Source of the DNA: a virus
Lineage: Duplodnaviria; Heunggongvirae; Uroviricota; Caudoviricetes
IMG/VR virus record: IMGVR_UViG_3300038492_000258
Coordinates: 108,995-172,994 of that record
Strand: one strand, 5' to 3'
Length of the DNA stretch: 64,000 bases
The notes beneath the pieces are model-generated. The model was not told the DNA's origin. It saw only the letters and a list, made by a program, of their open reading frames with translations, and searched no databases. Each line of letters starts with the position of its first letter. The first letter of the stretch is position 1. The position numbers were made by a program, and so were the translations under genes. Positions 6,671 through 53,595 of this stretch are shown piece by piece.

Positions 6671-6747
6671 TGGTGGAATGGGTGGGAGTCGAACCCACAA
6701 CACGGAGCTTGCAAAGCTCTGTCGCTTACCTCAGTACATGCCACCCC
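6671..6747 (-). tRNA. tRNA-Ala (anticodon UGC), CCA encoded
   Basis: Acceptor GGGGTGG/CCATTCC with G3.U70; loop TTTGCAA; T arm GTGGG-TTCGACT-CCCAC; ends ACCA. Confidence 0.55.
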
Positions 6748-9325: not shown

Positions 9326-9947
9326 TTTACATGAACAATATACTAAATGGCAGGCGTCCAGCATGCCTGACGGCAATGTATTTGTAGTAACTGGAGACTT
9401 TACTTATCACGGTACGCTTCCTGAGATTGTTCGATTTGCTAAGTGGCTAGACACTATGCCTTACGAACACAAAATTGTGATTGCTGGTAATCACGATTGG
9501 TTGTTTCAAAAGGGTCAGTTTATGGCGATCGACCTTCTGAAAGAAAACTGTCCGGACGCGATTTACCTGGAAGACAGCGGATGTGTAGTAGATGGAATTC
9601 GTTTCTGGGGTAGTCCCTGGCAACCGTGGTTTTTTGACTGGGCATTCAACTTGCCTCGCGATAGCGAGGCTATACAGCGTAAATGGGACTTGATCCCAAA
9701 AGAAACAGATGTTCTCTTGACACATACGCCACCCTACGGTATAATGGACATCACTCGTGAAGGCAAGCATGTTGGGTGTGAGCGACTGACACAGTCCTTA
9801 CAAAGAATTCAGCCGAAAGCCCATATTTTTGGGCATATTCATGAGAGTTATGGTATACTAGAGCGTGGCGGCACTATCTTCGCCAACGCCTCGTCCGTTA
9901 ATAGAAATTATCGATTAGTAAACGACCCAGTGGTAATTGAGATATGA
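9303..9947 (+). CDS. calcineurin-like metallophosphoesterase
   Basis: Motifs GDFTYHG, GNHD, GHIH characteristic of metallophosphoesterases; candidate RNA end-healing 2',3'-phosphatase. Confidence 0.7.
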   Translation: MIIVGASDLHEQYTKWQASSMPDGNVFVVTGDFTYHGTLPEIVRFAKWLDTMPYEHKIVIAGNHDWLFQKGQFMAIDLLKENCPDAIYLEDSGCVVDGIRFWGSPWQPWFFDWAFNLPRDSEAIQRKWDLIPKETDVLLTHTPPYGIMDITREGKHVGCERLTQSLQRIQPKAHIFGHIHESYGILERGGTIFANASSVNRNYRLVNDPVVIEI

Positions 9948-12765: not shown

Positions 12766-13352
12766 AAATTTCAGATCACGTTTTTGATTATCTCGTTTCC
12801 GTTACGGACGACGAGGATATTGGAGCAACACGAAGATCAACGTTTTGGGGTTTCCTGTTATTTGGAGTCGTGGCCATTCTAGCCACCACGGGACTATATT
12901 TTAATGTAGCAGCGGCCCTGACCCTCACGCATGCGTTAGCTTGGGTTATTGGATTGCTCTGGATATTTGTTGCTGGAGTTTCTTTCCTTGGAATTGTTGG
13001 TTTATGGAGTATTAATGACTTCGATAAAAACTCGCGAAGTTATGATAATAAAATTTTCCATGAGCCGCACGTACAGTTCCGTCCAGGTTTCTTTTATCGG
13101 GTCCTAAACTGGACTGCTCGGCCGGGTTATATTGCTCTTTCGGTAATTGCTGGCTGGACTTTTCTATTGGTCGTCCAACTGCTTGCTCTGGCCGTAATGG
13201 TATTTTGTAGGCAGCAAATGAAAGGTGCCTGGCGAAAACGACTTGCTATTCTTGAATCCATGGATCCCGAAGAATTGGGGTCGATCAGGCAGCATTCACA
13301 CCCCTTTGAGGCTATGGCTAAGGCGGCCCTCGAAAATTTCGAAAAAAGTTGA
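12762..13352 (+). CDS. integral membrane protein
   Basis: About 4 hydrophobic helices. Confidence 0.4.
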   Translation: MKISDHVFDYLVSVTDDEDIGATRRSTFWGFLLFGVVAILATTGLYFNVAAALTLTHALAWVIGLLWIFVAGVSFLGIVGLWSINDFDKNSRSYDNKIFHEPHVQFRPGFFYRVLNWTARPGYIALSVIAGWTFLLVVQLLALAVMVFCRQQMKGAWRKRLAILESMDPEELGSIRQHSHPFEAMAKAALENFEKS

Positions 13353-13378
13353 GACACTCAGAAGTCTTAGTGTATAAT
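13349..13378 (+). promoter_or_regulatory. sigma70-like promoter TTGAGA-18-TATAAT
   Basis: TTGAGA at 13349, TATAAT at 13373; heads a 1.1-kb non-coding stretch. Confidence 0.45.
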
Positions 13379-13384
13379 AGTACT

Positions 13385-14215
13385 CGCGGATGAGATTCGC
13401 GACCTTCGGAAGAGGTGGGATGTAGCCCCCAAGTAGAGGTAACAGCGGCTGCGGCATCGTTAAATGCGGTGATTGTGTGGATAGAGGGAACGATAGCCAT
13501 GGATAGCTTCAACTGTCCGGGCACTCTACATGCCTTCGGGCATAGCCCTTCCGAAGAACTCTTTGACAACTTGTAATCGTACACCTGATGTTACGGTACC
13601 GTAACATCAGGAACCTAAGATAGTTACAGCAGAGAGGTAACTCTGCGGTATCGAGTATGAAGCCTCGGCATCACGTTACCAAGCATGCCAACCTCATGAA
13701 GGGAAGAGGATAAGAAAGATACCAGTAACTATTTATCTGACCCTGTCGTCTAGGCTAGGACACCCCCAATACTCAGGGGGAGACGAAGGTGCAACACCTT
13801 CCGGGGTCGCCAAACATGTTATTAACAAGCAGCTTATGGTGAAAAACTAAGGATAATGCTGACCCATAAACAAGTCCGTGGACCGATCTAAGCTTCCCCG
13901 GGCACTGCTACAATTACCACGAAGGGGTGGATAAGATTCTTGAAGTAAATAGAGACGTTCGCTTAGAAAACTATCTTTTTTATGAGGAGAACTCCGTCTC
14001 CGACAGAATTCCAAAATTGTATGTTGATAACAACTAGAGGCGAACATATTATCGCCTCTAAAGTCCAAACATGTATATGACGTAGCTACAGTCAGCATGT
14101 TTCTCTTAATCGGGCAAATTGTAGGAACGAATTCGGAATCGGCCAGCGATGTCCAGAATTCTTCGCGAGTATTAGGTTCGGACTGGCATACCCTTTTACG
14201 TCGAAGATTAAGAGT
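13385..14215 (+). ncRNA. long structured non-coding region (unknown RNA)
   Basis: No credible ORF; UUCG-capped hairpins (ATGCC-TTCG-GGCAT), long-range pairing CCTTCGGAAGAG/CTCTTCCGAAGG about 140 nt apart; the minus ORF 13847..14485 runs through tRNA genes and is spurious. Confidence 0.3.
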
Positions 14216-14224
14216 TTTTACATT

Positions 14225-14313
14225 GCCGTAGTATACCACTAGGGACGTGGAGCGGGCTGTAACCCCGTCGCCCGTAAAGGGCTGGCTAGGTTCGACTCCT
14301 AGATGCGGCACCA
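14225..14313 (+). tRNA. tRNA-Tyr (anticodon GUA), long variable arm, CCA encoded
   Basis: Anticodon arm GCGGG-CTGTAAC-CCCGT, variable arm GCCC-GTAAA-GGGC, T arm CTAGG-TTCGACT-CCTAG, ends ACCA. Confidence 0.6.
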
Positions 14314-14319
14314 AATAAT

Positions 14320-14465
14320 GGGATGGTATGTGGATGACAAGCGTGTGAAAGCTGGAACTTATGGAGAATGTAAATTGGCCAATTGCTTCCGTGAAGTAAG
14401 ATTCTTGGAGAACAAGATTTAGGCAGACCGGGCGTTGTGTTTGGGTTCGACTCCCAACCATTCCA
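14320..14465 (+). tRNA. tRNA-Ala-like paralog carrying an insertion of about 70 nt
   Basis: Same acceptor (GGGATGG/CCATTCC with G3.U70), D region and T arm as the tRNA-Ala at 6671..6747, but about 146 nt long. Confidence 0.35.
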
Positions 14466-14474
14466 TCAATCAAG

Positions 14475-14502
14475 TTGACAACCACTAGTATCGAGGTATA
14501 AT
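14475..14502 (+). promoter_or_regulatory. consensus sigma70 promoter TTGACA-16-TATAAT giving a leaderless transcript
   Basis: TATAAT ends 6 nt before the ATG at 14509. Confidence 0.5.
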
Positions 14503-14508
14503 GAGACC

Positions 14509-16590
14509 ATGAACAAGCAAGAAATTCTTATTAAGAAGCGTGATGCGATCGAAGCTCGTCCGGCAGCTCGTGCTCGTGCGGCAGATCTGAAAGATCCTCG
14601 TGCTTTGGTTTTCCAAGCCGAAGCCATGAGGCTTGGATTTATCCTCAGCGAAGACCTTTTGTCTACCATTAGTCGTCTGAGCGACACCGCAATTATGGCC
14701 CTCTACAAAGAAGTGGTGCCTGTTCTGCGGAACATGGTCGGCGATGATGTCGAGTGGAAGCCGATGTATCCTAACTTCCCGAAGCAAGTTATGGAGGCAC
14801 CGGTTATTGAGCTTTTCCTTAACGCTATCGTTCACTATTGGTCGGGCGGACAATGGACGCCCGATTATGTCGCTGAGCCTCGTTTGCCGGCATTTGAAGC
14901 AACAAAATTCCGCACTCTGTCCCTTGCCGGGAGCGACGACCTAGCTTCTATCTTTACAGAAATTCTGTCCGCAAACGCTTCTGTTACGCCTGCGGATATC
15001 CGTATGCTCACGGAAATGTTTGATCGTGGCGATATTAATGAAGCTCAATTGGCAGCGGCCCTTCCGGATAATATTCCGTTTAGAGAAACTCTCTGCTGGT
15101 TTGTTGGTGAATGTATCGATCGTGGATGGACCGTGACGGGCATGGGAGCACTCAAAACGGCTACCGACGTATTGCGGGTAGCTACCCACCTTTCTCAAGG
15201 AGATGTTTCTCTTGCTGAGAATACTCGCTATCGTAGCTTTAGTCGCCCCTTGCGTAGGGCCTTCGTTGAAAGGTTGGAGCAAGTAGCGAACCAGAACGAT
15301 GTTTTCCGTCATCGTGGTAAATGGGTGCGTCTAGCTCACTCGTTACACGTTGGAGACTTTAGTGCCCAAGCACCTAATTTCTACAACATGATTACGGCTG
15401 CTCGGAGTAATGCTACTAAATATCAAAGCTTTGATGGTCGTGTAGAATCCGCCATTGCAAATCGCGACCGTAAGGGCGTTTGTAGTCTCCTAAAGCAACG
15501 TCCTGGTGTATTCGCACGTCGTCTTGATCATCTTCTGCGAGAATTTGGTCCCCGTGATATTGCACGGGAATTCATTGGTGTGGTTGATAAGGTAGATACG
15601 CGAGTACTGCTACAACTGCATGGTCATTTCAATGGACGTACTCAGAGCGTCGATCGTCGTTTGGTATTCCCGAAGGGCAATATGGGTAAGGCACGTTTGC
15701 TTACTAATACGCTAGAGGCTCTGCCTACGGCAACCGTAAAGCATATTCGTGATGGTATTGAAAGTGCTCTAGAGGCACGTTTTGCGACCCTAGATCCTCT
15801 TGGAAAAGTTTATATCGATAAGACACTTTGGGATTGCCCAATTCCATTGAGCCTACGTTCTGCATCCGAAGGGCTACAAACTGTCGCCCGAGGCACACGA
15901 ATGCCGATTGGGGATAAGGGTACCGTTCGGATGTTTATCTACTGGAAAGGTCGTGACATTGATCTTTCTGGATTCTTGGTAAATGAAGACTTTACGCAAG
16001 AAAGTACTGTCGCTTATTACAATCTAAGAGAAGGTTTCGGATGTCACTCTGGCGATATTACGAATGCTCCTCGTGGTGCTTCTGAGTTTATTGACATTAA
16101 TGTCGATCAAGCTTTGGCTGAAGGTCATCGTTACCTAGTAATGACCGTTCATGTATATTCTGGTCCTACTTTTAAGGAGCACGAAGTTTGTTATGCGGGC
16201 TGGATGACCAGAAGTCATCCTGGCAGTAATGAGATTTACGATCCCAAAACTGTTCAGCACCGCATCGATGTGCAGGCCGATAGCCGCACGGCTGTGCCTG
16301 TTATGTTTGACCTAAAAGAAAGACAAGCGATTTGGCTTGACTTGGTCCAACGTGGTGGTAATCTAAGGCGTCCTAACAATGTTGCGAACAGCAAGGCTGG
16401 CCTTGTGGATTTCATTGATGGGGCATTGAATATGGATAATAAGCCAACGCTCTTCGAGCTATTCGAAATGCATGCAAGAGCACGAGGTACGATCGTTGAC
16501 AATATGAATGATGCCGATAAAGTCTTCTCTTGGTCTGAAGGCACGAAGCCTACGGATGTATCAGAGATTCTTTCAGAGTATCTTGGTTGA
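14509..16590 (+). CDS. large hypothetical protein (693 aa)
   Basis: Long uninterrupted ORF; helical N-terminal two-thirds, C-terminal region with degenerate vWA-like DIDLSGF segment; function unknown. Confidence 0.45.
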   Translation: MNKQEILIKKRDAIEARPAARARAADLKDPRALVFQAEAMRLGFILSEDLLSTISRLSDTAIMALYKEVVPVLRNMVGDDVEWKPMYPNFPKQVMEAPVIELFLNAIVHYWSGGQWTPDYVAEPRLPAFEATKFRTLSLAGSDDLASIFTEILSANASVTPADIRMLTEMFDRGDINEAQLAAALPDNIPFRETLCWFVGECIDRGWTVTGMGALKTATDVLRVATHLSQGDVSLAENTRYRSFSRPLRRAFVERLEQVANQNDVFRHRGKWVRLAHSLHVGDFSAQAPNFYNMITAARSNATKYQSFDGRVESAIANRDRKGVCSLLKQRPGVFARRLDHLLREFGPRDIAREFIGVVDKVDTRVLLQLHGHFNGRTQSVDRRLVFPKGNMGKARLLTNTLEALPTATVKHIRDGIESALEARFATLDPLGKVYIDKTLWDCPIPLSLRSASEGLQTVARGTRMPIGDKGTVRMFIYWKGRDIDLSGFLVNEDFTQESTVAYYNLREGFGCHSGDITNAPRGASEFIDINVDQALAEGHRYLVMTVHVYSGPTFKEHEVCYAGWMTRSHPGSNEIYDPKTVQHRIDVQADSRTAVPVMFDLKERQAIWLDLVQRGGNLRRPNNVANSKAGLVDFIDGALNMDNKPTLFELFEMHARARGTIVDNMNDADKVFSWSEGTKPTDVSEILSEYLG

Positions 16591-16722
16591 TAAATAAAAT
16601 TGAACGGCCACATAATATCTTCCTTCTATATCTACGATTTTGGAAACCTAGATATTAAACTTTCCGTTCCATTATACAAAACAATGCGGCTATAAGCTTC
16701 TCTTCCTTCTATTTTACCAACC

Positions 16723-16852
16723 GGGGGTTGCGGGTTCGAGTCCCGTCAGGCGGCCCTGCCGTCTGTAGCTCAACTGGTAGAGCACCGGTCTTATTCGAAA
16801 CTAGAGAGCCCAATTTCCGCACTTACAAAGGCCCGGCGACGGCAGGGCCTAT
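16723..16852 (+). ncRNA. atypical tRNA-like element
   Basis: T-arm-like GCGGG-TTCGAGT-CCCGT followed by a D-arm-like GTAGCTCAACTGGTAGAGCA enclosed in a 12-bp inverted repeat GGCCCTGCCGTC/GACGGCAGGGCC; does not fold as a canonical cloverleaf. Confidence 0.3.
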
Positions 16853-16854
16853 CG

Positions 16855-16941
16855 CTCTAGATGACAGATGCATATGTTGTTGGTGTAAAGGCAGCACACC
16901 GGCCGAAAGCCGGAGGAACGGTTCGATTCCGTATCTAGGGT
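16855..16941 (+). ncRNA. tRNA-like element with long extra arm and non-canonical anticodon region
   Basis: Acceptor CTCTAGA/TCTAGGG, T arm AACGG-TTCGATT-CCGTA, extra arm CCGGC-CGAAA-GCCGG; no standard 7-nt anticodon loop found. Confidence 0.3.
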
Positions 16942-17252
16942 GATGAATACAAGGTGGCTATTCGAATTCCTTCCTTCTATGATGCTGCACAAGCATCAGC
17001 CTATTAAGCTGACTTTAGGGATTGTAATTTCCACCACTTAAAACATGACGGCTATTCTTACTTCTTCCTTCTACATCAAATTTATTGGAAAATTTTAAAT
17101 AGAGGCTGAAATCTCCGTCATTTCTTACAAGTGAAGTGTATCTGACTGTACCAACGTGGTGACTATTGAGACCGCAAATCTCAATATGGAATCGACAGAA
17201 TGGGGCGGTGCTCAGCTAGCCGTCAAATGTCACCGGACGCTTCACTTTTCAT

Positions 17253-17289
17253 GTCCATGAAAATTTTCATGTACATGAAAGGGCTCGTT
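17253..17289. promoter_or_regulatory. tandem palindromes TTTTCATGT(C/A)CATGAAA x2 upstream of tRNA-Glu
   Basis: ttttcatgtccatgaaaattttcatgtacatgaaa, each unit internally palindromic (TTCATG-N-CATGAA). Confidence 0.3.
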
Positions 17290-17823: not shown

Positions 17824-17900
17824 GGCTCTGGGGCCCGTGAGGACGGGCAGTGGCCTCTAAAACCACTTTGTAGCGGGTTCGACTCCCGTCAGGGCCTCCA
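17824..17900 (+). tRNA. candidate amber-suppressor tRNA (anticodon CUA)
   Basis: Acceptor GGCTCTG/CAGGGCC (7 bp with one G.U), D arm GCCC-GTGAGGAC-GGGC, anticodon arm GTGGC-CUCUAAA-ACCAC with C.A at 31-39 (alternatively perfect 5-bp stem with 9-nt loop, CUA still central), T arm GCGGG-TTCGACT-CCCGT, ends TCCA. Confidence 0.45.
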
Positions 17901-17906
17901 ATATAT

Positions 17907-18034
17907 TGCCATGTAGTGTAAAAGCGGGCGAAAGTCTTATGCGAGTGATCATTAGCTTGGACCTCTTGGAAACGCGGGATAGCACGCCGGAAATTGAGCC
18001 GGTAGTATTGGTTCGAATCCAATCGTGGCAGCCA
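17907..18034 (+). ncRNA. tRNA-like element with about 48-nt insertion in D region and 8-nt anticodon-region loop
   Basis: Acceptor TGCCATG/CGTGGCA, T arm ATTGG-TTCGAAT-CCAAT, ends GCCA; D region GTGT...GCAC interrupted by insert; CCGG-AAATTGAG-CCGG stem-loop. Confidence 0.3.
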
Positions 18035-27048: not shown

Positions 27049-27756
27049 ATGAAGAATCAGTGAAGAGGAAACGACACCGGAATCGTTGTCGAAATCCAGG
27101 CCGGTGAAGGTGGAGACGATTCAAAACTATTTGTTGACGACTTATTTTCTGCATACTTAAAATATGCGGAGACTAATAATGCCAAGACAGAACTAGTCTA
27201 TAAGTCGCACGGCAAAGTGGGCTTTAAAGTATTGGGAAATAAGGCTGCCAAGTTATTTAAACACGAAACCGGCAAGCATGTAGTGCAACGGTGTCCGCCA
27301 ACAGAGAATAAGGGAAGGCGGCATACCAGCACTATTACTGTTTCTATTCTTCCTATTCTTAGCTCATCTTCTTTTACTCTGAAAGAGCAAGATATTGAGA
27401 CAAAAACCCAACGTGGCCATGGGCCTGGTGGACAACACCAGAATACAACCGATTCAGCCGTCCGTATGGTTCATAAACCCACGGATACAGTTGTTTTCAT
27501 CAATGGGCGAGATCAGCATTCCAATAAGCGTTTAGCACGTCAAATTCTGGAAGCTAGAGTGGCCGAGAAAATCCGAGGCCGCCAAAACCGTGAACGATCT
27601 GAAAATAAACGAGAACAGGTTGACGGTGGCGGCCGAGGCAACAAAACTCGAACATACAATTTCCTTGACAGTCGAGTTGTAGACCATATACTTGGTACTC
27701 GCACGAGCAAGATCAAACAGGTCATGAAGGGCCGATTCGATTTACTCTGGAAATAA
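27049..27756 (+). CDS. class-I release factor homolog (RF1-like PxT-type) lacking domain 1, with in-frame UGA at codon 5
   Basis: After TGA at 27061 the frame encodes EIQAGEGGDDSKLFVDDLFSAYLKYAE...VVQRCPPTENKGRRHTS...GHGPGGQHQNTTDSAVRMVHKPT...RTYNF (RF domains 2-4: PPT tripeptide region, RHTS, GGQ); ATG 27049 is 4 codons upstream in frame; the ORF track only reports the part from GTG 27217. Confidence 0.55.
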
Positions 27757-34911: not shown

Positions 34912-35616
34912 ATGTGGTTACGCCTTCTAGTCTATATTTCAGTACTTTTTTACTTGGTTGAGCTGACCCTTGGGGCAGCGAACAGTCTAGAAGGTAATCC
35001 GTTCTTTCTGTGGACAGAACGGATGATTGCCACAGTATTTACTTGCGAATATGTCGTCCGTCTCAAGAGGGGCGGACGACAGTACGCACGATCTGGTCTC
35101 GGTATTGTAGATGCTATTGCCGTGATCCCATTTTGGGCTGGCTTTTTTGTGCCAGCCGCTTGGCTTGGTCCTGTGCGGGCCATGCGTATTCTGCGACTAC
35201 TTAAGTTATTCAGATATAATCCATCTTTACAACTAGTCGCAAGAGGCTTTAAACGTGCTTGGCCAATGTGTAGAGCACTATCAATAGCAACACTGATTTT
35301 CTGGCTATTCTCGTCCGTTGTGATCTTTGAGCTGGAAAAGACTGCACAACCAGATGACTTCACGCTTTATCAAAGTTTCTGGTTTACAGCCGTCACGATG
35401 ACGACAGTAGGGTATGGTGATATGTCTCCCCAGACTCCACCTGGGCAAGCATTCTCTATGGGGATGTTCATCGTGGCCCTGGCTTTGTATTCTGGAGTGC
35501 TTGGAACTATTGCGACAGCTCTATCAGAGGAAGTAAAAGATACTAATGAGCGATCTACTAGTGAATGTGGTACAAGTGAACGAAGTCAAACCCCATCCGA
35601 ATGCGGATCGGCTTGA
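34912..35616 (+). CDS. voltage-gated-type potassium channel
   Basis: Selectivity filter TMTTVGYGDM; S4-like RAMRILRLLKLFR with Arg every third residue; 5-6 TM helices. Confidence 0.7.
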   Translation: MWLRLLVYISVLFYLVELTLGAANSLEGNPFFLWTERMIATVFTCEYVVRLKRGGRQYARSGLGIVDAIAVIPFWAGFFVPAAWLGPVRAMRILRLLKLFRYNPSLQLVARGFKRAWPMCRALSIATLIFWLFSSVVIFELEKTAQPDDFTLYQSFWFTAVTMTTVGYGDMSPQTPPGQAFSMGMFIVALALYSGVLGTIATALSEEVKDTNERSTSECGTSERSQTPSECGSA

Positions 35617-36631
35617 ACTTGTTTGTATCGACGGCTGGGAAATTATTTCAGGCAAGGGTAACTATTCTGCGGGCGATACCGTAGTACATGTTCCACCCGA
35701 CGCTATGGTGCCAATGGCACGAGCCCAAGGATGGGGTGTAGACAAATACCTGTCCTTCCGTGGACAAGCCGAAATGGGCCGAGTCAAGGCCCAGAAACTA
35801 CGTGGCGTAGTTAGCTTCGGCTTCCTGGTTCCTAACGATACACAATCGGAGGTCGGCACCGACCTACGCGAACATTATGGCATCGAAAAATACGAACCAC
35901 CGGCACCTGGGATGGACGCTGGTAGAGTGCGTCATTGTCATCCTTTGTTTCATCGGTATACTAACATCCAAAATCTTCGAAACCATACTAGGAAACTCGA
36001 TTACGAACAAGAATTAATTGTAACCGAGAAAATTCACGGTACGAATAGTCGTGTTGGATGGGTTCGGCGTCTAGATCCCGCCGAAGGCGAGTCTGAATTC
36101 GAAAAGGTTGTAGGAACCCACAATACTCAACGGAAGTTGGAAGAGTGTGGTATTTACGGACTGCCTTTTGAATTGTACGATGACCAATTGGAACACATAT
36201 TTCTTGAGGCACAAAAATACTGCCCGCCTGGTGAGCAACTAAATTCTCTAATTATTTTTGGTGAAATCTACGGTGCTGGCGTTCAAGACCTTCATTACGG
36301 TAAAAAAGAACAAAAGGGATATCGTGTTTTCGACATTACCCTGAACGGTCGATACATTCCGTGGAAGACTATGGCCGCTTTGTGCGACGTTTATCGAGTA
36401 CCTACCGTAGAAGTTCTAGAACGTGGCTACTTTGGTTTCGATGACCTAAAGGCACTTGCCGAAGGCAATACTCTACACGACGATTCGCATATTCGTGAAG
36501 GAATTGTGGTGCGTCCGTTCGACCAAGAACTAACCTGGGGTCGCACAGAACGCGTCAACGACCGTCGCATGATTTTCAAACTAATTAATCCAGATTACTT
36601 GCTTCGCAAGGGTGGATCGGAGTATCACTGA
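35546..36631 (+). CDS. RNA ligase, Rnl2 family
   Basis: Nucleotidyltransferase motif I EKIHGTN as in T4 Rnl2; 361 aa. Confidence 0.55.
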   Translation: MSDLLVNVVQVNEVKPHPNADRLELVCIDGWEIISGKGNYSAGDTVVHVPPDAMVPMARAQGWGVDKYLSFRGQAEMGRVKAQKLRGVVSFGFLVPNDTQSEVGTDLREHYGIEKYEPPAPGMDAGRVRHCHPLFHRYTNIQNLRNHTRKLDYEQELIVTEKIHGTNSRVGWVRRLDPAEGESEFEKVVGTHNTQRKLEECGIYGLPFELYDDQLEHIFLEAQKYCPPGEQLNSLIIFGEIYGAGVQDLHYGKKEQKGYRVFDITLNGRYIPWKTMAALCDVYRVPTVEVLERGYFGFDDLKALAEGNTLHDDSHIREGIVVRPFDQELTWGRTERVNDRRMIFKLINPDYLLRKGGSEYH

Positions 36632-41194: not shown

Positions 41195-41284
41195 GGGGGC
41201 GTTTACCGAGCGGTCGAAGGTATCCGGCTTTTAACCGGGCGGGCGAAAGCCCCATCGTGGGTTCGAATCCTACCGCCCTCACCA
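41195..41284 (+). tRNA. long-variable-arm (Ser-like body) tRNA with Lys anticodon (UUU), CCA encoded
   Basis: D region ACCGAGCGGTCGAAGGT like tRNA-Ser; anticodon arm TCCGG-CTTTTAA-CCGGG (E. coli tRNA-Lys loop); extra arm GGGC-GAAA-GCCC; discriminator A. Confidence 0.5.
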
Positions 41285-41334: not shown

Positions 41335-41697
41335 GTGGACACTATGACTACGAAACGAACCAAGAAGAAGTTTCCCCTGGCGGACGTACTCACCATCGTT
41401 TGTGGCATCGAACTTGGCGAATCTGGCCGAGAGGGTGCCCTGAAAGTTGCTCGTTTTTTCATGGATGAGAAAGATATGTCCATGGAAGAGTTAGAGCAAC
41501 GCGGCTATGATATTCAGCAGTTGCTTCGAATTCAATTGACGCAATTTTCACAAATTGACGCTGAGGTTGATCAATACGAGAAATTCCTAGCAGCCGCAGA
41601 AGATCAGTCACAGGCCGACTCGCTTGCGGACGATTTCGTTACGCAACAGATGCATACTCACGGAGAAACTGTAGAAGTACATAAAATGGGGTCGTAG
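41335..41697 (+). CDS. acidic hypothetical protein
   Basis: 120-aa ORF. Confidence 0.35.
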   Translation: MDTMTTKRTKKKFPLADVLTIVCGIELGESGREGALKVARFFMDEKDMSMEELEQRGYDIQQLLRIQLTQFSQIDAEVDQYEKFLAAAEDQSQADSLADDFVTQQMHTHGETVEVHKMGS

Positions 41698-41764
41698 CCC
41701 AATCGGCAGAGGCAACAGACTTAAAATCTGTCAAGTGTGGGTTCGAGTCCCACCGACCCTACCA
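41688..41764 (+). tRNA. short-variable-arm tRNA with Leu anticodon (UAA), CCA encoded
   Basis: Acceptor GGGGTCG/CGACCCT, anticodon arm ACAGA-CTTAAAA-TCTGT, 5-nt variable loop, T arm GTGGG-TTCGAGT-CCCAC, A73. Confidence 0.55.
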
Positions 41765-42087: not shown

Positions 42088-42163
42088 GCACGAGTAGCCC
42101 AACGGCAGAGGCACATGGCTTAGGACCATGCAAGTGTGGGTTCGAATCCCACCTCGTGTACCA
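42088..42163 (+). tRNA. short-variable-arm tRNA with Leu anticodon (UAG), CCA encoded
   Basis: Paralog of 41688 tRNA; anticodon arm CATGG-CTTAGGA-CCATG, G37, 5-nt variable loop, A73. Confidence 0.55.
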
Positions 42164-46758: not shown

Positions 46759-46831
46759 GAAACGACTTGACTGATCTCCTGTAGGGGATATACTAGTGCG
46801 GGGTCATAGTGCCCCGCACTATTTTTATACA

Positions 46832-47299
46832 ATGAAAAAACTCATTATCATTCGCGGTCCTAGCGGTTCTGGTAAAACTACGATTGCTGCTAGCATTGGT
46901 CGTCACCAGGATTATAGTGTGTCTTGGCATGAAGCTGACGATTTTTTCGTTGGTGAAGATGGAGAGTATCATTTTAATCCTCAGTATCTTGGACAAGCTC
47001 ACAAGTCATGCCAGGATTCTGTTCGCGTTGAAATGTGTTACGAACGCTCGATTATTGTGGTTAGTAATACTTCAATGAAGCGTTGGGAGATGAATCCCTA
47101 TTTGCAGCTCGCACGAGAATTTGATTATGACATCGAAGTAATTCGTACGCCTGGCCCGTGGAACGCACAAGAGAGCTTTGAGCGTAACCTGCATGGTGTG
47201 CCCCTAACAACTATCGAAAAACAAATCGCTAAATACGAACCCTATGAGGGGGAGTTTGAGTGGCCTGATATTACTTATGAACGACGAGAACAAGAATAA
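46832..47299 (+). CDS. polynucleotide 5'-kinase-like P-loop protein (T4 Pnk kinase-domain-like)
   Basis: MKKLIIIRGPSGSGKTT and ERSIIVVSNTSMKRWE parallel T4 Pnk MKKIILTIGCPGSGKST and VIISDTNLNPERR; no HAD phosphatase domain. Confidence 0.5.
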   Translation: MKKLIIIRGPSGSGKTTIAASIGRHQDYSVSWHEADDFFVGEDGEYHFNPQYLGQAHKSCQDSVRVEMCYERSIIVVSNTSMKRWEMNPYLQLAREFDYDIEVIRTPGPWNAQESFERNLHGVPLTTIEKQIAKYEPYEGEFEWPDITYERREQE

Positions 47300-47606
47300 C
47301 CTGTCGGCTAAGAAAAGTCTTTGTTATACTTGCAAGCATGGTTTGTGTATTGCACAACAAATGCACGCACAGGTGCTCGGGGAAATTACAGAACAAGAAG
47401 TCGAGAGTGAAGACCTCTTAGATATTCCGTGGGACGACGGAACCGAACCGGCTTCGGAGATTCCGCACGGAATGCAGCATCTTCAGATGGACAGAGTGTG
47501 CTCGCTGTGTTACTATAACCCGCCGGGTCGCACTGATCCCCCCACTATCAATGCTGCCGTTATCACGGATTGCAACCGATATGAACGAGACGATTCTATC
47601 CAATAA
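47278..47606 (+). CDS. hypothetical Cys-rich protein
   Basis: About 109 aa, CYTCKHGLC. Confidence 0.3.
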
Positions 47607-48888
47607 ACACATTGATCTATGTACGGGACTCCGAGATGTTGGGGCGACTCCCTACATTGTCGGTGGTTGTGTACGTGATATGTTGTTAGGGCGTCGTCCC
47701 AAAGATATCGACATTGTTGTTGTCGGTATTGACGAGAACGATTTAATCGACAGAATGGATGCCGCTGGATGGAACATCAAGTGTGTCGGTGCAGCATTTC
47801 CTGTATATCTAATTAATGATATCGAAGTGGCCTTGGCTCGTAAAGAACACAAGGTCGCGGAAGGGCATCGTGGTTTCGAATGCGACACTGCAAATATTAC
47901 GCTGGAAGAAGATCTCTTCCGTCGTGACCTGACTATTAATGCTATTGCAATGGACCCATTTAGTGGAGACATTATCGATCCATACAATGGCGTACAACAC
48001 ATTAAGGGACAAATTCTAAACCCTGTTAGTCAACATTTTGCAGAGGACCCGCTACGTGTCCTGCGGGCGGCACGTTTCGCTGCACAACTAGATTTCAATA
48101 GTACAGATGAACTAAAACTGGCGGCAGCCAATGTTCTCCCTGAATTAATTGATCTATCCGGTGAACGTGTATTTGGAGAACTACTAAAAGCTCTCCGTAG
48201 TGATCGTCCTAGTAAATTCATTACAGTATTGGATGAACTTGGTGCCCTGGAAATTGTATTCCCTGAGATCTACAATCTCAAAGGGCGTGTTCAACCAGAG
48301 AAATATCATCCCGAGGGTGATGCATACGTACATACATTACTTGTTCTAGATCGCTGCCGTGCTCTCGGGGGTGACGATGAAACAATGTATGCAGCCTTAT
48401 TACATGATTTAGGTAAGGCGGTCACCCCCGACGACAATTTACCTCACCATTATGATCACGAGCGTCTCGGCGTTCCTCTTGTGAGGACCTTATCCGAACG
48501 CATTAAGGCTCCCACAAGCTTTCGCAAAACTGCTGAAACTGCTTCGCGGGAACATCTTAACGTGCATCGTTTTGATACAATGAAACCGATTAAGAAGGTG
48601 AGAATGATTGTGAGGCTCGGGGCCTTACAAAATGATCTACTATTGCGTAGGGTGGCTCTCGCCTCACAGGCTGACGCTCAGGGACGTGGTCCTGATTTTA
48701 TTGATGCCCCTTATCCAAGCAGAATCAATCTGATTAAGGCGGCTGAAGTTGCTCGCAGTGTAAGGGGTCATGAGTTTGCCCACCTAAAGAACGGGCGAGT
48801 TATTGCACAGAAAATGGAGGCCGCTAGAGCTAAGGCTTTAGAGGCCGCAGGATTCCGTAAGGTAGGAAATAGTTATGGTAACAATTAA
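47551..48888 (+). CDS. cca: tRNA nucleotidyltransferase (CCA-adding enzyme) with HD domain
   Basis: Head-domain motif GGCVRDMLLGRRPKDIDIVV, C-terminal HD (HHYDHERLG). Confidence 0.75.
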   Translation: MLPLSRIATDMNETILSNKHIDLCTGLRDVGATPYIVGGCVRDMLLGRRPKDIDIVVVGIDENDLIDRMDAAGWNIKCVGAAFPVYLINDIEVALARKEHKVAEGHRGFECDTANITLEEDLFRRDLTINAIAMDPFSGDIIDPYNGVQHIKGQILNPVSQHFAEDPLRVLRAARFAAQLDFNSTDELKLAAANVLPELIDLSGERVFGELLKALRSDRPSKFITVLDELGALEIVFPEIYNLKGRVQPEKYHPEGDAYVHTLLVLDRCRALGGDDETMYAALLHDLGKAVTPDDNLPHHYDHERLGVPLVRTLSERIKAPTSFRKTAETASREHLNVHRFDTMKPIKKVRMIVRLGALQNDLLLRRVALASQADAQGRGPDFIDAPYPSRINLIKAAEVARSVRGHEFAHLKNGRVIAQKMEAARAKALEAAGFRKVGNSYGNN

Positions 48889-49549: not shown

Positions 49550-50074
49550 TTGGATTGTCCAACCCTATTCAACAGGAGGAATTGTATGAGTGCATTAACA
49601 CAATCGCAAATTGATACTCTGGCCGAAGGCTGGAAACTGAAGGTAGCGGGCCAAGCTCAGTATGAATATCATCGTATGAGCGAAATCGCTAAGTTAATCT
49701 CGGAGGAAAATTGGGATGAGGTAAAGGTCCAGTTAACATTTGGTAAAGATAAGTACGTGGTTCATACGCTTGCTTTGGATATCTTTTATCTAATGTTACA
49801 AAGTGCTCTGGGCAGACGAGTTCCCGAGGAGGAGGCTGTCGGTGACTTATCTGAGCAGGATATGCTTTTCCTGGAAAACAAATATAACGAATTTGCTCCC
49901 ACGGTACCTGTTATTATCGCCAATCTTGAATCTCTTTTGACCTTCTTAAACTCGGGCAATACTGGCCCGGAGTTTATTTTACTATTTGACACTACTAAGT
50001 TGCTAACGCACGAGCTGTTTGTGAAAGAGCAAGCATGGACTCACCACTTCCAGGCGTTAGCTTATGAGCAATGA
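49550..50074 (+). CDS. hypothetical protein
   Basis: 174-aa ORF. Confidence 0.4.
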   Translation: MDCPTLFNRRNCMSALTQSQIDTLAEGWKLKVAGQAQYEYHRMSEIAKLISEENWDEVKVQLTFGKDKYVVHTLALDIFYLMLQSALGRRVPEEEAVGDLSEQDMLFLENKYNEFAPTVPVIIANLESLLTFLNSGNTGPEFILLFDTTKLLTHELFVKEQAWTHHFQALAYEQ

Positions 50075-51144
50075 AAGACAGTCTACTTTTAAATAAAATT
50101 TGGAAAGAGGTGGAGGCTGGCAATGTGTCCGCCAGCCGCACCGACAACCTTACTATATTCAAATATACTCAGGATTGTCATATTCAGGGTAATTGGAATG
50201 ACGTTAATCGTCAGTGTCGAGGAATCATATTCCGCGATGACGGCACCGTTGTAGCTAGACCCTTTTCTAAATTTTTCAATTTAAATGAGCTTCCTGAAAC
50301 TGAGCCTCGAAATCTCCCATGGCGTGAGGGGATAGAGGTATACGAAAAGCTCGATGGTAGCTGTGGCACGGGGTATCGTAAAGAAACGTGGGATGCTGGT
50401 ATTGGTACACATACGAAATGGTTTATAGCAACGCCAGGCAGCATGGAATCAGACCAGGCTGTCGAGGGTACTGCCATGCTTGGTATGTACAATCTAGAAT
50501 TCATGCCACAAAACTGTACACCAGTATTCGAGATTATCTATCCTGATAATAGAATTGTCGTAGATTATAACGGTTTTCGTGGATTGGTATTGTTAGCTAT
50601 CTTCGATCACAACGGAGAAGAGTGGCATCCACGTCGTGTAGACAGTATTGCTGAAGTTTGTGGTTTCCGCAGACCAAAAGTATATGACATCGATATTCGT
50701 GGAGAGATTCCTTTTGAGGATAACGCTGAAGGCTATGTCGCAAGATTTGGTTGTGGCACGCGTGTGAAAATCAAAAGCCCAGCTTACCTCAGGATTCATA
50801 GATTGTTGGATCGTCTCTCGCCCAAAGGAGTTATCGAACTAATGCAGGGCAGAGAATACGGTATGACTGTGCGTCAATTACCTGACTCTATCGCCAAGGA
50901 TTTCGACGATATCCGTGCTCATGTCCAGGGAGTCTTTAACTCTGTTCTTACAGAAGTTGGCGAGAAATATCGTGACATGATGGAGACCGTTGGTCAACAT
51001 GCGAATCGAAAAGCCTATGCTATGTGGATTGCGGAGAACGCACCGCAAGAACTTGCTGGCTTTGTTTTTGCTATGATGGATGGCAAAGATTTCGATCATA
51101 AGATTTGGAAGCTAGTATTAGAGAAAGTTACCAATGGTTCATAA
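50071..51144 (+). CDS. RNA ligase 1 (T4 RnlA-like tRNA repair ligase)
   Basis: CRGIIFRDDG, RPFSKFFNLNELPE and motif I EKLDGS (Lys at about residue 99) parallel T4 Rnl1 CRGIMFEMDG, RPMEKFFNLNENPF, KEDGS; similar length. Confidence 0.8.
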   Translation: MKDSLLLNKIWKEVEAGNVSASRTDNLTIFKYTQDCHIQGNWNDVNRQCRGIIFRDDGTVVARPFSKFFNLNELPETEPRNLPWREGIEVYEKLDGSCGTGYRKETWDAGIGTHTKWFIATPGSMESDQAVEGTAMLGMYNLEFMPQNCTPVFEIIYPDNRIVVDYNGFRGLVLLAIFDHNGEEWHPRRVDSIAEVCGFRRPKVYDIDIRGEIPFEDNAEGYVARFGCGTRVKIKSPAYLRIHRLLDRLSPKGVIELMQGREYGMTVRQLPDSIAKDFDDIRAHVQGVFNSVLTEVGEKYRDMMETVGQHANRKAYAMWIAENAPQELAGFVFAMMDGKDFDHKIWKLVLEKVTNGS

Positions 51145-52579: not shown

Positions 52580-53015
52580 TCTCAGATTCTCATTTCGCCC
52601 GAAAGCCCGAGTGGCTATTGGCGTTTATACGCTCGATGGTCGTGCATACATTGCAGCGGCTTTTGCCAATGATGGAGTCAAGGGTGACGTTATCAATCCA
52701 GATCGTCGTGACAATTGGTGTCGTCGTACGGCTCGCACAATTATCTCGCAACGTATTTCTAGCTACTTAGATGGTAATGATCGCGTGCGTTTCGTACGAG
52801 AAATCGATGCTGGTAGTCTAAGTGCCGTGGGTATTGTGAACGCCTTGCGAAACAGCTTTAAACCAGATCCGGAAGAAAGCGATATGACTTTTTATGGGTA
52901 TCATGACACCCTTGGGGCTCCTATCACATATCGTCTACCTGTAGACGACATGTGGGAGGGAATTCTTGGAATGATCGACAGTATTGACGTACCCCATGCG
53001 AGTTCTCGTTTATGA
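52557..53015 (+). CDS. hypothetical protein
   Basis: 152-aa ORF. Confidence 0.35.
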   Translation: MTRLDRDNLRFSFRPKARVAIGVYTLDGRAYIAAAFANDGVKGDVINPDRRDNWCRRTARTIISQRISSYLDGNDRVRFVREIDAGSLSAVGIVNALRNSFKPDPEESDMTFYGYHDTLGAPITYRLPVDDMWEGILGMIDSIDVPHASSRL

Positions 53016-53595
53016 TACTGAAACCGGGGGCACTAACCCGGACAAACATAGCTTGTTATCTTTGGGAGCCCTTGCTGGCGACCTAGATACCGGCGAGGTA
53101 TTCGGTCAGTTTGAACTATTACATAAATTGCCTTCTTTAGATGACTATGTTATCGATCAAGGTGCTATTGAAGTTCATGGCATTACTGCTGCTCAATGTA
53201 TGGCAGAAGGAGTGCTTACAGATCAAATTCGAGATCAATTTGCTGACCTGTATTATGACAACAATTGTGTTCTGTTAGGTGGACACAACGTTGTCTTCGA
53301 CGAAAACTTTGTCGCTAGACAACTGTTTGGTATTTCAAATTCCGAGTTTGAGCAAACATTTACTTACTCTAAATTAGATACGCTGCCGGTTATTCGCTTC
53401 TTTGCTGGTGTTGAAAAAATGAAACAGGGTGCTACCCTGAAACAAACAACAAAAGCACTCGGTATTGATATGAGCGATATTAAGTCTGGTGGTTATCACG
53501 CAGCCCTATTCGATGTTATTGCCACCTTCCGTATTATGTGTAAGTTTAGGAAGGTACTATCCGACCAAGCGGTCGTGGAGATGTTAACAAAATGA
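52984..53595 (+). CDS. DEDDh 3'-5' exonuclease (DnaQ-like)
   Basis: Exo I VYDTETGG, Exo II GHNVVFD, Exo III YHAALFD. Confidence 0.7.
   Translation: MTYPMRVLVYDTETGGTNPDKHSLLSLGALAGDLDTGEVFGQFELLHKLPSLDDYVIDQGAIEVHGITAAQCMAEGVLTDQIRDQFADLYYDNNCVLLGGHNVVFDENFVARQLFGISNSEFEQTFTYSKLDTLPVIRFFAGVEKMKQGATLKQTTKALGIDMSDIKSGGYHAALFDVIATFRIMCKFRKVLSDQAVVEMLTK

What the first reader, a model, noticed from the sequence alone, without database searches (positions are those of the whole stretch)
14320..14465. tRNA-Ala paralog interrupted by an insertion of about 70 nt
The 5' 30 nt and 3' 35 nt closely match the tRNA-Ala at 6671..6747, including the G3.U70 identity pair and the GGGTTCGACTCCCA T arm. The central region contains about 70 extra nucleotides in the anticodon/variable region. 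This could be a small intron (unusual for a bacterial virus; bacterial tRNA introns are normally group I of over 200 nt) or a degenerate duplicated copy.
Basis: seen in the sequence. Interest (0 to 1): 0.5.

Follow-up and report, generated by a model that had tools for sequence, protein, structure and literature searches.

The report
Non-decoding tRNA-Ala copy with expanded loops
A large phage carries a second copy of its own alanine tRNA gene that keeps every tRNA stem but has hugely enlarged anticodon and variable loops and a spoiled CCA end, so it cannot read codons and is either a tRNA-shaped small RNA or a decaying gene copy, not an intron-bearing tRNA.

Summary
Window 14320-14468 (+) is a 149-nt paralog of the phage tRNA-Ala(UGC) at 6671-6747 (-). 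It has a 7-bp acceptor stem with G3.U70 and A73, and a canonical T arm. The 72 extra nucleotides are not one block. The homologous anticodon stem survives (GAAAGC/GCTTCC, with the same A.C mismatch). Its loop has grown from 7 to 32 nt and the variable region from 4 to 50 nt. The 3' end reads A-TCA, whereas all 28 tRNAs in the window encode CCA.

The intron reading is not supported:
- No excision restores a 7-nt loop with U33.
- BHB motifs occur at chance level.
- There is no group I or tmRNA signal.
- There is no similarity to the 45-65-nt insertions that interrupt good tRNAs in distant relatives.

No homolog exists in any collection searched, so covariation cannot be tested. My best reading (0.45) is a non-decoding tRNA-like small RNA, transcribed with tRNA-Tyr. 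The close rival (0.38) is a decaying pseudogene.

The neighbourhood holds other odd tRNA-like genes and a phage RNA-repair and CCA-adding kit. Interest is moderate.

The parts
14320..14326 (+). Acceptor stem, 5' strand GGGATGG (G3 of the G3.U70 pair)
   Evidence: Pairs 7/7 with 14458-14464. 6/7 identical to the tRNA-Ala copy; G4.U69 there becomes A4-U69 here.
14327..14346 (+). U8-A9 and D-like region (TATGTGGATGACAAGCGTGT). It has the same weak 2-bp D stem (G11-C23, U12.G22) as the paralog. The GG of the paralog's D loop is changed to TG.
   Evidence: Helix-by-helix comparison; ARAGORN drawing of the paralog.
14347..14352 (+). Anticodon-stem homolog, 5' strand GAAAGC
   Evidence: Aligns with CAGAGC of the tRNA-Ala. 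Pairs with 14385-14390 with the same A.C mismatch.
14353..14384 (+). Expanded 'anticodon' loop, 32 nt instead of 7. It ends in the perfect 12-nt palindrome AATTGGCCAATT (14373-14384) and has no U33-type loop.
   Evidence: (palindrome self-hit).
14385..14390 (+). Anticodon-stem homolog, 3' strand GCTTCC, followed by GTG as in the tRNA-Ala (GCTCCGTG)
   Evidence: A strand pairing at least 5/6 and followed by GTG occurred in 557 of 20000 shuffles of the interior (p about 0.03).
14391..14440 (+). Expanded variable region, 50 nt instead of 4. It contains a hairpin at 14400-14420 (core TCTTG-GAGAA-CAAGA). Its two ends (CGTG ... CGTTGTG) both resemble the paralog's CCGTGTTG.
   Evidence: TGGAGAA direct repeat at 14362 and 14406.
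14441..14457 (+). T arm TTGGG-TTCGACT-CCCAA. The T loop is identical to the paralog's. The first stem pair is U-A where the paralog has G-C (both sides changed).
14458..14464 (+). Acceptor stem, 3' strand CCATTCC (U70)
   Evidence: Identical to the paralog.
14465..14468 (+). Discriminator A73 followed by TCA in place of CCA
   Evidence: All 28 ARAGORN tRNAs of the window have an encoded CCA, as does the long tRNA-like gene at 17907.
6671..6747 (-). Paralog: tRNA-Ala(UGC), 77 nt, G3.U70, encoded CCA. It is the only Ala tRNA in the window.
   Evidence: ARAGORN. Not listed in the Rfam scan at gathering score.
14225..14313 (+). tRNA-Tyr(GUA). It ends 6 nt before the element and is the probable co-transcript.
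   Evidence: No terminator lies between them.
14475..14502 (+). Consensus sigma-70-type promoter (TTGACA-16-TATAAT, 12/12) of the next gene. It starts 7 nt after the element and marks its 3' boundary.
   Evidence: The same arrangement is seen upstream of the gene's homologs in L064 and L065.

Best explanation
The element is a diverged duplicate of the phage's own tRNA-Ala(UGC) gene. It has kept the whole tRNA framework but can no longer decode.

Shown:
- It has a 7-bp acceptor stem with the alanine identity pair G3.U70 and A73.
- It has the same weak 2-bp D stem as the paralog.
- It has the homologous 6-position anticodon stem with the same A.C mismatch.
- It has a canonical T arm.
- The anticodon loop is 32 nt and the variable region 50 nt.
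- The CCA is TCA.

Inferred:
- It is transcribed together with tRNA-Tyr, which ends 6 nt upstream, with no terminator between them.
- RNase P releases it at G1 because the acceptor/T minihelix is intact.
- Its 3' end could be trimmed and rebuilt by the phage's own RNase T-like exonuclease and HD-domain CCA-adding enzyme.
- The product would be a roughly 145-nt tRNA-shaped small RNA. tRNA-handling enzymes could recognise it (RNase P, CCA enzyme, possibly AlaRS through G3.U70), but the ribosome could not use it for decoding.

I favour this 'tRNA mimic or stable tRNA-like RNA' reading over a dead pseudogene only narrowly. Its cellular role is not established. A decoy or binding partner in the phage-host conflict over tRNAs is a guess.
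For: - Homology to the tRNA-Ala copy.
- All helices are intact although 7 stem nucleotides differ. The T-stem pair G-C has become U-A, both sides changed. The anticodon stem is kept despite 4 differences and carries the same A.C mismatch. G4.U69 has become A4-U69.
- By my own count, differences are denser in the 5' 33 nt (about 65% identical) than in the last 28 nt, which cover the T arm and the 3' acceptor strand (25/28 identical).
- Both large insertions lie in loops.
- The 6-nt spacing after the CCA of tRNA-Tyr resembles other tRNA pairs in the array.
- The same window holds other non-decoding tRNA-like genes. One is a tRNA-model match of 34.5 bits with a 59-nt D-loop insertion at 17907-18031. 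Another is a permuted tRNA-like module matching YrlA at 42.3 bits, E 6e-8, at 16722-16787.
- The window encodes a CCA-adding enzyme with an HD domain, an RNase T-like exonuclease, two RNA ligases and a P-loop kinase, so a missing CCA need not be fatal.
- Precedent: T4 makes two small RNAs of unknown role, RNAC and RNAD, from its tRNA region (PMC3014915). YrlA RNAs are tRNA mimics handled by tRNA enzymes (PMC4201824).
Against: - The element ends in TCA while 28 of 28 tRNAs encode CCA.
- The D-loop GG of the paralog is lost.
- The fold is not more stable than shuffles (z -1.35).
- The homologous anticodon stem is not the thermodynamically preferred pairing: -28.5 against -36.4 kcal/mol for constrained folds.
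- Rfam finds no tRNA match, even with permissive filters.
- No homolog was found in viral, metagenome or genome collections, or next to the neighbouring gene's relatives. There is therefore no covariation evidence.
- The direction of the compensatory differences cannot be polarised. They may all have happened in the working tRNA-Ala lineage.
- There is no expression data.
Confidence: 0.45

Rival explanations
1. It is a decaying pseudogene. A duplicate of tRNA-Ala was disabled by insertions or local duplications in the anticodon loop and variable region and by a C-to-T change in the CCA. It has no function. The helices are intact only because the decay is recent, or because the stem differences arose in the working copy.
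For: - TCA instead of CCA, against 28/28 CCA.
- No usable anticodon loop.
- The D-loop GG is lost.
- The inserted sequence is AT-rich with weak hairpins, and the fold z-score is not significant.
- No Rfam match, and no ARAGORN call at default settings.
- The element is unique to this genome.
- The closest relative that has a tRNA at the same spot (L002) has an ordinary tRNA-Ala(UGC) directly upstream of the homologous gene. This fits an ancestral working gene that was replaced by the copy at 6671.
- Short repeats flank the variable-region insert (CGTG ... CGTTGTG) and TGGAGAA occurs twice, as expected from slippage or insertion events.
Against: None of the 20 helix positions listed has lost pairing relative to the paralog, although the two copies differ at 7 stem nucleotides and at roughly a third of the D-region positions. 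The time needed for compensatory pair changes should have broken pairs in a neutral copy. Both insertions avoid the stems. The T loop and the 3' acceptor strand are unchanged.
Confidence: 0.38
2. It is a true tRNA gene with one or two short introns. A protein endonuclease removes them and the phage RNA ligases rejoin the exons, giving a decoding tRNA.
For: - Relatives that carry the same neighbouring gene family contain good tRNAs (Rfam tRNA 43-56 bits) interrupted by 45-65-nt insertions in the anticodon arm.
- 'Enigmatic' introns in tRNAs of huge phages have been reported (Devoto et al., bioRxiv 10.1101/356790).
- The window encodes Rnl1-like and Rnl2-like ligases, a P-loop kinase and an HD-domain CCA enzyme, which is a heal-and-seal kit.
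Against: - With the homologous stem kept, no excision gives a 7-nt loop with U33 (read from the sequence).
- The deletion scan gives only 48 marginal class-II-like calls and none for Ala, against 123-1005 for real interrupted tRNAs.
- BHB motifs are at chance level.
- There is no group I signal and the insert is far too small for one.
- A profile of the relatives' insertion family finds nothing significant in the window and nothing on the + strand of the element.
- The CCA is missing.
- No splicing endonuclease was found among the window ORFs scanned.
Confidence: 0.07
3. It is a miniature tmRNA-like rescue RNA. An alanine-charged tRNA-like domain would carry a short internal reading frame (ATG GAG ... 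AAG TAA, 14361-14399).
For: - G3.U70, A73, a weak D arm and an intact T arm, as in the tmRNA tRNA-like domain.
- More distant relatives carry normal tmRNA genes 2-4 kb from the same gene family, and none is found in this window.
- A 12-codon frame lies inside the insert (read from the sequence).
Against: - ARAGORN tmRNA mode and the Rfam tmRNA models find nothing.
- At 149 nt it is far below the 346-420 nt of the relatives' tmRNAs.
- No pseudoknots are predicted.
- The frame ends in ...ASVK, unlike the ...VAA / ...LVA tags of the relatives.
- The topology differs, with two separate loop expansions rather than one.
- The CCA is missing.
Confidence: 0.03

Closest known systems
Bacterial tRNA-Ala and the AlaRS acceptor/T minihelix substrates
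   Same: A 7-bp acceptor stem with G1-C72, G2-C71, G3.U70 and A73, stacked on a canonical T arm. It is clearly derived from the phage's own tRNA-Ala(UGC).
   Different: There is no 7-nt anticodon loop, no U33 and no encoded CCA. It carries 72 extra nucleotides. It scores below every tRNA detector at default settings.
Small stable RNAs made from phage tRNA clusters (T4 RNAC and RNAD; PMC3014915. Their size and tRNA-like ends are from my own memory, not checked here.)
   Same: A non-tRNA gene of about 120-150 nt embedded in a phage tRNA array, probably co-transcribed and processed with tRNAs. Role unknown.
   Different: No sequence comparison to T4 RNAC or RNAD was made. Expression and stability of this element are unknown. 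This one is a recognisable paralog of a specific tRNA.
YrlA / bacterial Y RNAs (tRNA mimics, Rfam RF02553; PMC4201824)
   Same: A non-decoding RNA that keeps tRNA-like arms and could be handled by tRNA enzymes. A YrlA-like module lies 2.3 kb downstream in the same window.
   Different: YrlA modules are circularly permuted (the acceptor is closed by a loop and the ends form a Ro-binding stem) and lie near a Ro60 gene. This element is unpermuted and has no YrlA match. Its neighbouring gene is a TerD-domain protein, not Ro60.
tRNA-like domain of tmRNA
   Same: Alanine identity, a degenerate D arm, an intact T arm, and extra RNA inserted where the anticodon arm would end.
   Different: No pseudoknots, no recognisable tag frame, less than half the size, no CCA, and no hit with tmRNA models.
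Interrupted tRNAs of huge phages ('enigmatic introns', Devoto et al. 2018 preprint; and the 45-65-nt insertion family seen here in relatives)
   Same: A phage tRNA gene enlarged by tens of nucleotides in the anticodon region, in a phage group where this happens.
   Different: In those genes the exons rebuild a high-scoring tRNA (43-56 bits) and the inserts share a motif (GGCTATA...AGTTACTTC). Here the exons do not rebuild a tRNA and the motif is absent.

Membership tests
Decoding tRNA | 7-bp acceptor stem, discriminator base and T arm with a canonical T loop | tested here: met
   7/7 and 5/5 pairs, T loop TTCGACT, A73.
Decoding tRNA | 7-nt anticodon loop with U33 on a 5-bp stem | tested here: not met
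   The stem homolog is present but the loop is 32 nt. No excision restores U33 (and sequence).
Decoding tRNA | Recognised by a tRNA covariance model or ARAGORN at default thresholds | tested here: not met
   No Rfam tRNA hit at E <= 10. No ARAGORN call at default settings.
Decoding tRNA | 3' CCA (encoded in every tRNA of this genome region) | tested here: not met
   TCA here, against CCA in 28/28.
tRNA with group I intron | Intron of at least about 200 nt with a group I core, inserted in the anticodon loop | tested here: not met
   The inserts are 25 and 46 nt. No group I match at E <= 10.
tRNA with archaeal/eukaryal-type (BHB) intron | Bulge-helix-bulge motif at both exon-intron junctions, such that excision gives a tRNA | tested here: not met
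   One weak motif against 0.68 expected in shuffles. Its excision gives no tRNA.
tRNA with archaeal/eukaryal-type (BHB) intron | A splicing endonuclease available in phage or host | tested here: inconclusive
   None was found among the window ORFs scanned with Pfam. The window is only part of the genome and the host is unknown.
45-65-nt insertion family in tRNAs of related huge phages | Shared insert sequence (…TAATTTCYGT…GGCTATA…AGTTACTTC) and exons that rebuild a canonical tRNA | tested here: not met
   The nhmmer profile of 9 inserts gives no significant hit in the window and none on the + strand of the element. The deletion scan is poor (compared).
tmRNA | tRNA-Ala-like domain with G3.U70 | tested here: met
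tmRNA | Pseudoknots and a tag reading frame with a resume codon; length about 250-420 nt; detection by tmRNA models | tested here: not met
   ARAGORN -m finds nothing. No Rfam tmRNA hit. The element is 149 nt.
YrlA / Y RNA | Permuted tRNA-like module plus a terminal stem carrying GNCGAAN0-1G | tested here: not met
   No YrlA hit over the element. The topology is unpermuted and the motif is absent from the element (sequence).
YrlA / Y RNA | Ro60 (TROVE) gene within about 4 kb on the same strand | tested here: not met
   The adjacent 693-aa protein has a TerD-like C-terminal domain and no Ro60 match. No TROVE domain was found in the window ORFs scanned.
tRNA pseudogene | Derived from a tRNA gene and lacking features essential for function | tested here: met
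   Paralog of the 6671-6747 gene. The anticodon loop and CCA are lost.
tRNA pseudogene | Signs of neutral decay (broken helices, truncation) | tested here: not met
   No helix position has lost pairing relative to the paralog. With no outgroup this is not decisive.
Phage small stable RNA from a tRNA cluster (T4 RNAC/RNAD type) | Encoded inside a tRNA array and co-transcribed with tRNAs | tested here: inconclusive
   It starts 6 nt after tRNA-Tyr with no terminator between them. Transcription itself was not observed.
Phage small stable RNA from a tRNA cluster (T4 RNAC/RNAD type) | Accumulates as a discrete stable RNA during infection | not testable with these tools
   No expression data are available.

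The most novel reading that the evidence does not exclude
The element is a working member of a set of phage-encoded, non-decoding tRNA mimics. It would be an alanine-identity tRNA scaffold with two expansion segments, matured by RNase P and the phage's own exonuclease and CCA-adding enzyme, and possibly charged by AlaRS. It could act as a decoy or adaptor in the conflict over tRNAs (host tRNA-cleaving defences against the phage RNA-repair kit), or in ribosome rescue. With the 59-nt-expanded tRNA-like gene at 17907 and the permuted YrlA-like module at 16722, it would define a repertoire of tRNA-derived small RNAs in huge phages.
Probability: 0.2. Interest if true: 0.7.

Novelty: new variant of a known kind. 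Interest (0 to 1): 0.38.

Why it matters
Large phages carry big tRNA arrays, and annotation pipelines skip anything that is not a clean tRNA. If this element is expressed, it adds a case of a tRNA gene turned into a non-decoding tRNA-shaped RNA. Such RNAs matter for how phages deal with host enzymes and defences that act on tRNAs. If it is a pseudogene, it is an ordinary by-product of tRNA gene turnover. Either way, the case shows that 'long tRNA' does not automatically mean 'intron'. It also led to interrupted tRNAs and Y-RNA-like modules nearby and in relatives that deserve their own study.

Tried and rejected
- ARAGORN with intron and tmRNA options. Only the relaxed mode gave a poor 'tRNA-Ser(GGA) with a 58-nt intron'. 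Rejected because the acceptor has Ala identity, the stem has a G.A mismatch and the variable region does not fold.
- Rfam with permissive filters over 13600-15000. No tRNA, tmRNA, group I or ribozyme hit.
- Homolog searches. BLAST against phages. Exact or degenerate DNA patterns in viral contigs, metagenomes (7 unrelated tRNAs) and genomes (2 chance hits). Neighbourhoods of 62 viral loci and 7 further contigs carrying the neighbouring gene's homologs. None has the element, so no covariation analysis was possible. The Logan contig L001 is identical to the window.
- Deletion scan for a hidden tRNA. ARAGORN is too permissive on good exons for this to be decisive. Still, the element gave 48 calls against 123-1005 for real interrupted tRNAs.
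- BHB motif search with shuffles: chance level.
- Homology of the insert to the relatives' insertion family and to the 59-nt insert of the 17907 gene (z 1.9-2.7, not convincing).
- Tandem duplication of a 44-nt unit inside the insert (TGGAGAA repeat). About 45% identity by eye, not significant once the seed is discounted.
- Idea that the 693-aa neighbour is a Ro60-like protein flanked by Y-like RNAs. Rejected: TerD-like fold and no Ro60 match.
- Minus-strand ORF 13847-14485 as a real gene. It has no family match and overlaps tRNA-Tyr, so it is judged spurious.
- Thermodynamic support for the cloverleaf: not obtained.

Full report
**Setting.** The window is part of a large phage genome.
- It carries 28 ARAGORN-called tRNA genes.
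- It has a consensus bacterial sigma-70-type promoter in front of the neighbouring gene.
- It encodes a translation and RNA-repair toolkit: Rnl2-like and Rnl1-like RNA ligases, a P-loop kinase, an HD-domain CCA-adding enzyme, an RNase T-like exonuclease, an RF-1-domain protein, peptide deformylase and methionine aminopeptidase.
- It has no close relative in the phage collection.
- The best homolog of the adjacent 693-aa protein is 62% identical.
- A Logan contig (L001) is identical to the window over 8 kb.

**The observation.** Window 14320-14468 (+) begins 6 nt after the CCA of tRNA-Tyr (14225-14313). It ends 7 nt before the -35 box of a 12/12 consensus promoter at 14475-14502.
- Its ends form a 7/7 acceptor stem, GGGATGG/CCATTCC, with G3.U70. 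A73 follows.
- A canonical T arm (TTGGG-TTCGACT-CCCAA) precedes the 3' strand.
- The 3' 24 nt match the tRNA-Ala(UGC) at 6671-6747 (-) at 23/24, E 7e-6 in the window.
- By my own count, 25 of the last 28 positions are identical, and the 5' 33 nt are about 65% identical, with the acceptor strand 6/7.

**Refined anatomy.** Aligning the two copies helix by helix shows that the 72 extra nucleotides are not one insert.
- The 5' strand of the paralog's anticodon stem (CAGAGC) corresponds to GAAAGC at 14347-14352.
- The 3' strand and its flank (GCTCC-GTG) correspond to GCTTCC-GTG at 14385-14393.
- The two strands pair at 5 of 6 positions, with an A.C mismatch at the same place as in the paralog.
- A strand that pairs this well and is followed by GTG arises in 2.8% of shuffles of the interior.
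- The loop between the strands is 32 nt instead of 7. It ends in a perfect 12-nt palindrome, AATTGGCCAATT.
- The variable region is 50 nt instead of 4. It contains a hairpin with the core TCTTG-GAGAA-CAAGA. At both ends it carries short sequences resembling the paralog's CCGTGTTG.
- The weak 2-bp D stem of the paralog is conserved.
- The tail is A-TCA, whereas all 28 tRNAs of the window have an encoded CCA, as does the tRNA-like gene at 17907.

**Is it an intron-bearing tRNA?** The evidence says no.
- With the homologous stem kept, every way of joining the loop's 5' and 3' ends into 7 nt gives C or G at position 33, never U.
- I deleted every segment of 20-90 nt and asked ARAGORN for a tRNA. 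This gave 48 calls, all 87-101-nt Ser/Pro/undetermined solutions. A slightly wider version of the same procedure on real interrupted tRNAs of relatives gave 123-1005 calls.
- A strict bulge-helix-bulge search found one weak motif against 0.68 expected in shuffles.
- Rfam with permissive filters found no tRNA, group I, tmRNA or ribozyme match. ARAGORN's tmRNA mode found nothing.

**Relatives.** I found no homolog of the element.
- DNA pattern scans of viral contigs, metagenomes and genomes returned nothing or unrelated tRNAs.
- None of 62 viral loci and 7 further contigs that carry homologs of the neighbouring gene has a long G3.U70 element other than ordinary tmRNAs.
- In L002 (57% protein identity), an ordinary tRNA-Ala(UGC) sits directly upstream of the gene's homolog. 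Other relatives have a different tRNA or none there.

Covariation analysis of the element is therefore impossible with present data.

**Functional RNA or pseudogene?**
- For decay: the spoiled CCA, the lost D-loop GG, AT-rich inserts with weak hairpins, and an insignificant fold z-score of -1.35. The homologous anticodon stem is also not the thermodynamically preferred pairing.
- Against simple decay: the two copies differ at 7 stem nucleotides, yet no helix position has lost pairing. One T-stem pair changed on both sides (G-C to U-A). The anticodon stem is kept through 4 differences. G4.U69 became A4-U69. Differences are much denser in the D region than in the T arm and the 3' acceptor strand. 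Both expansions sit in loops.
- Limit of that argument: without an outgroup I cannot tell in which copy the changes happened, so the argument is suggestive and not decisive.
- Context favours function slightly. The same 5-kb stretch holds a gene that matches the tRNA model at 34.5 bits only if a 59-nt D-loop insertion is allowed (17907-18031). It also holds a permuted tRNA-like module matching the Y-RNA-like family YrlA at 42.3 bits, E 6e-8, below the gathering score (16722-16787).
- The phage encodes its own CCA-adding enzyme and an RNase T-like exonuclease.
- Known precedents for non-decoding tRNA-like RNAs are YrlA (PMC4201824) and the T4 RNAC and RNAD small RNAs from the tRNA region, whose roles are still unknown (PMC3014915).

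**Verdict.** The element is a non-decoding derivative of the phage tRNA-Ala gene with two loop expansions.
- I put 0.45 on a processed tRNA-like small RNA.
- I put 0.38 on a decaying pseudogene.
- I put 0.07 on a spliced tRNA.
- I put 0.03 on a mini-tmRNA.

The steps from transcription to any cellular role are inferred, not shown.

**A hypothesis tested and dropped.** Because a YrlA-like module lies just downstream of the 693-aa gene and the element just upstream, I asked whether that protein is a Ro60 homolog.
- It has no Pfam domain and no PDB sequence match to Ro60.
- Its AlphaFold model (pLDDT 81) has an all-helical N-terminal part and a beta-rich C-terminal domain. That domain matches TerD structures (3ibz, E 8.5e-4).
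- It is not Ro60.

**Side findings.** Distant relatives that share this gene family carry otherwise canonical tRNAs interrupted by 45-65-nt insertions in the anticodon arm.
- These tRNAs score 43-56 bits with the Rfam tRNA model and have Asn, Arg, Gly-like and other anticodons.
- The insertions share a sequence motif.
- The 3' part of that motif occurs three times in the window's 16590-17282 spacer, around the YrlA-like module.
- Short 'enigmatic' introns in tRNAs of huge phages were noted by Devoto et al.. I found no paper that explains them.

Noticed in passing
window 17907-18031 (+): A tRNA-like gene 6 nt after the suppressor tRNA(CUA). It matches the Rfam tRNA model at 34.5 bits (gathering score 29) only with a 59-nt insertion in the D loop. 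It has an 8-nt 'anticodon' loop (AAATTGAG) and an encoded GCCA. ARAGORN does not call it.
   Followed up: partly
window 16722-16787 (+): A circularly permuted tRNA-like module: variable/T arm, then an acceptor hairpin CAGGCGG-CCCTG-CCGTCTG, then the D arm GCTCAACTGGTAGAGC. It matches Rfam YrlA (Y RNA-like) at 42.3 bits, E 6e-8, below the gathering score of 69. No Ro60/TROVE gene was found in the window. A similar hit exists in relative L056 at 9334-9408 (37 bits).
   Followed up: partly
window 16688-16711, 16956-16979, 17050-17073 (+); also 16619-16628: Three copies of GGCTAT-N(8-9)-TTCCTTCTA (0 expected by chance), plus a fourth CTTCCTTCTA. All lie in the 690-nt spacer after the 693-aa gene, flanking the YrlA-like module. 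The motif resembles the 3' part of the insertions that interrupt tRNAs in relatives.
   Followed up: partly
L020 6579-6705, L026 6613-6734, L037 6667-6791, L034 3547-3665 and 3709-3827, L056 8771-8911, L059 6087-6220, L093, L144, L122: Otherwise canonical tRNAs (Rfam tRNA 43-56 bits for those scanned) carrying 45-65-nt insertions in the anticodon stem or loop. The inserts share a sequence (…TAATTTCYGT…GGCTATA…AGTTACTTC). They occur near homologs of the same 693-aa gene. ARAGORN does not call these genes, and the removal mechanism is unknown.
   Followed up: partly
window about 16852-16940 (+): Another tRNA-like stretch: acceptor CTCTAGA/TCTAGGG, D arm GTGT..GCAC, the hairpin CCGGC-CGAAA-GCCGG where the anticodon arm should be, a 4-bp T stem, and no CCA.
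   Followed up: no
window 20138-20227 and 41195-41284 (+); 41688-41764 and 42088-42163 (+): tRNA-Asn(GUU) and tRNA-Lys(UUU) are 90 nt long because of extra variable-arm hairpins capped by GAAA loops (GGGAGAAATCCC, GGGCGAAAGCCC). The two tRNAs with Leu anticodons (UAA, UAG) are class-I length and have no long variable arm.
   Followed up: no
window 35546-36631, 46796-47299, 47551-48888, 50071-51144, 52984-53595, 27217-27756: An RNA repair and translation kit: an Rnl2-like RNA ligase, an AAA_33 P-loop kinase, a CCA-adding enzyme with an HD domain, a T4 Rnl1-like ligase, an RNase T-like exonuclease and a 179-aa RF-1/PCRF-domain protein. A suppressor tRNA(CUA) lies at 17824-17900.
   Followed up: partly
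window 14509-16590 (+): A 693-aa protein of a very large uncharacterised family (over 2800 homologs, phrog_33734), typically found beside tRNA arrays and tmRNA genes of big phages. The AlphaFold model (pLDDT 81) has a helical N-terminal part and a TerD-like C-terminal beta-sandwich (3ibz, E 8.5e-4).
   Followed up: partly
L020 8200-8598: A GOLLD RNA (Rfam 315.7 bits) lies about 2 kb downstream of the gene homolog, at the position where other relatives (L026, L022, L032, L043, L044, L006) carry a tmRNA.
   Followed up: no
window 13379-13738 (+): About 360 nt of non-coding sequence between a strong promoter (13349-13378) and an odd tRNA with anticodon ACU (13739-13812). It is rich in hairpins, including the perfect stem CCTGATGTTACGG/CCGTAACATCAGG. 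No Rfam match.
   Followed up: no
window 6671-6747 (-): The 'canonical' tRNA-Ala(UGC) is itself atypical: C8, a 2-bp D stem and an A.C mismatch in the anticodon stem. It is not listed in the Rfam scan at gathering score. It lies in a small minus-strand group (Gln, Ala, Met), opposite in orientation to all the other tRNAs.
   Followed up: partly
L064 1130-1212: In the closest relative (62% protein identity), an uncalled tRNA-like stretch with a good T arm (TGGGGTTCGAATCCCCA) sits between tRNA-Glu and tRNA-Pro, just upstream of the gene homolog.
   Followed up: no
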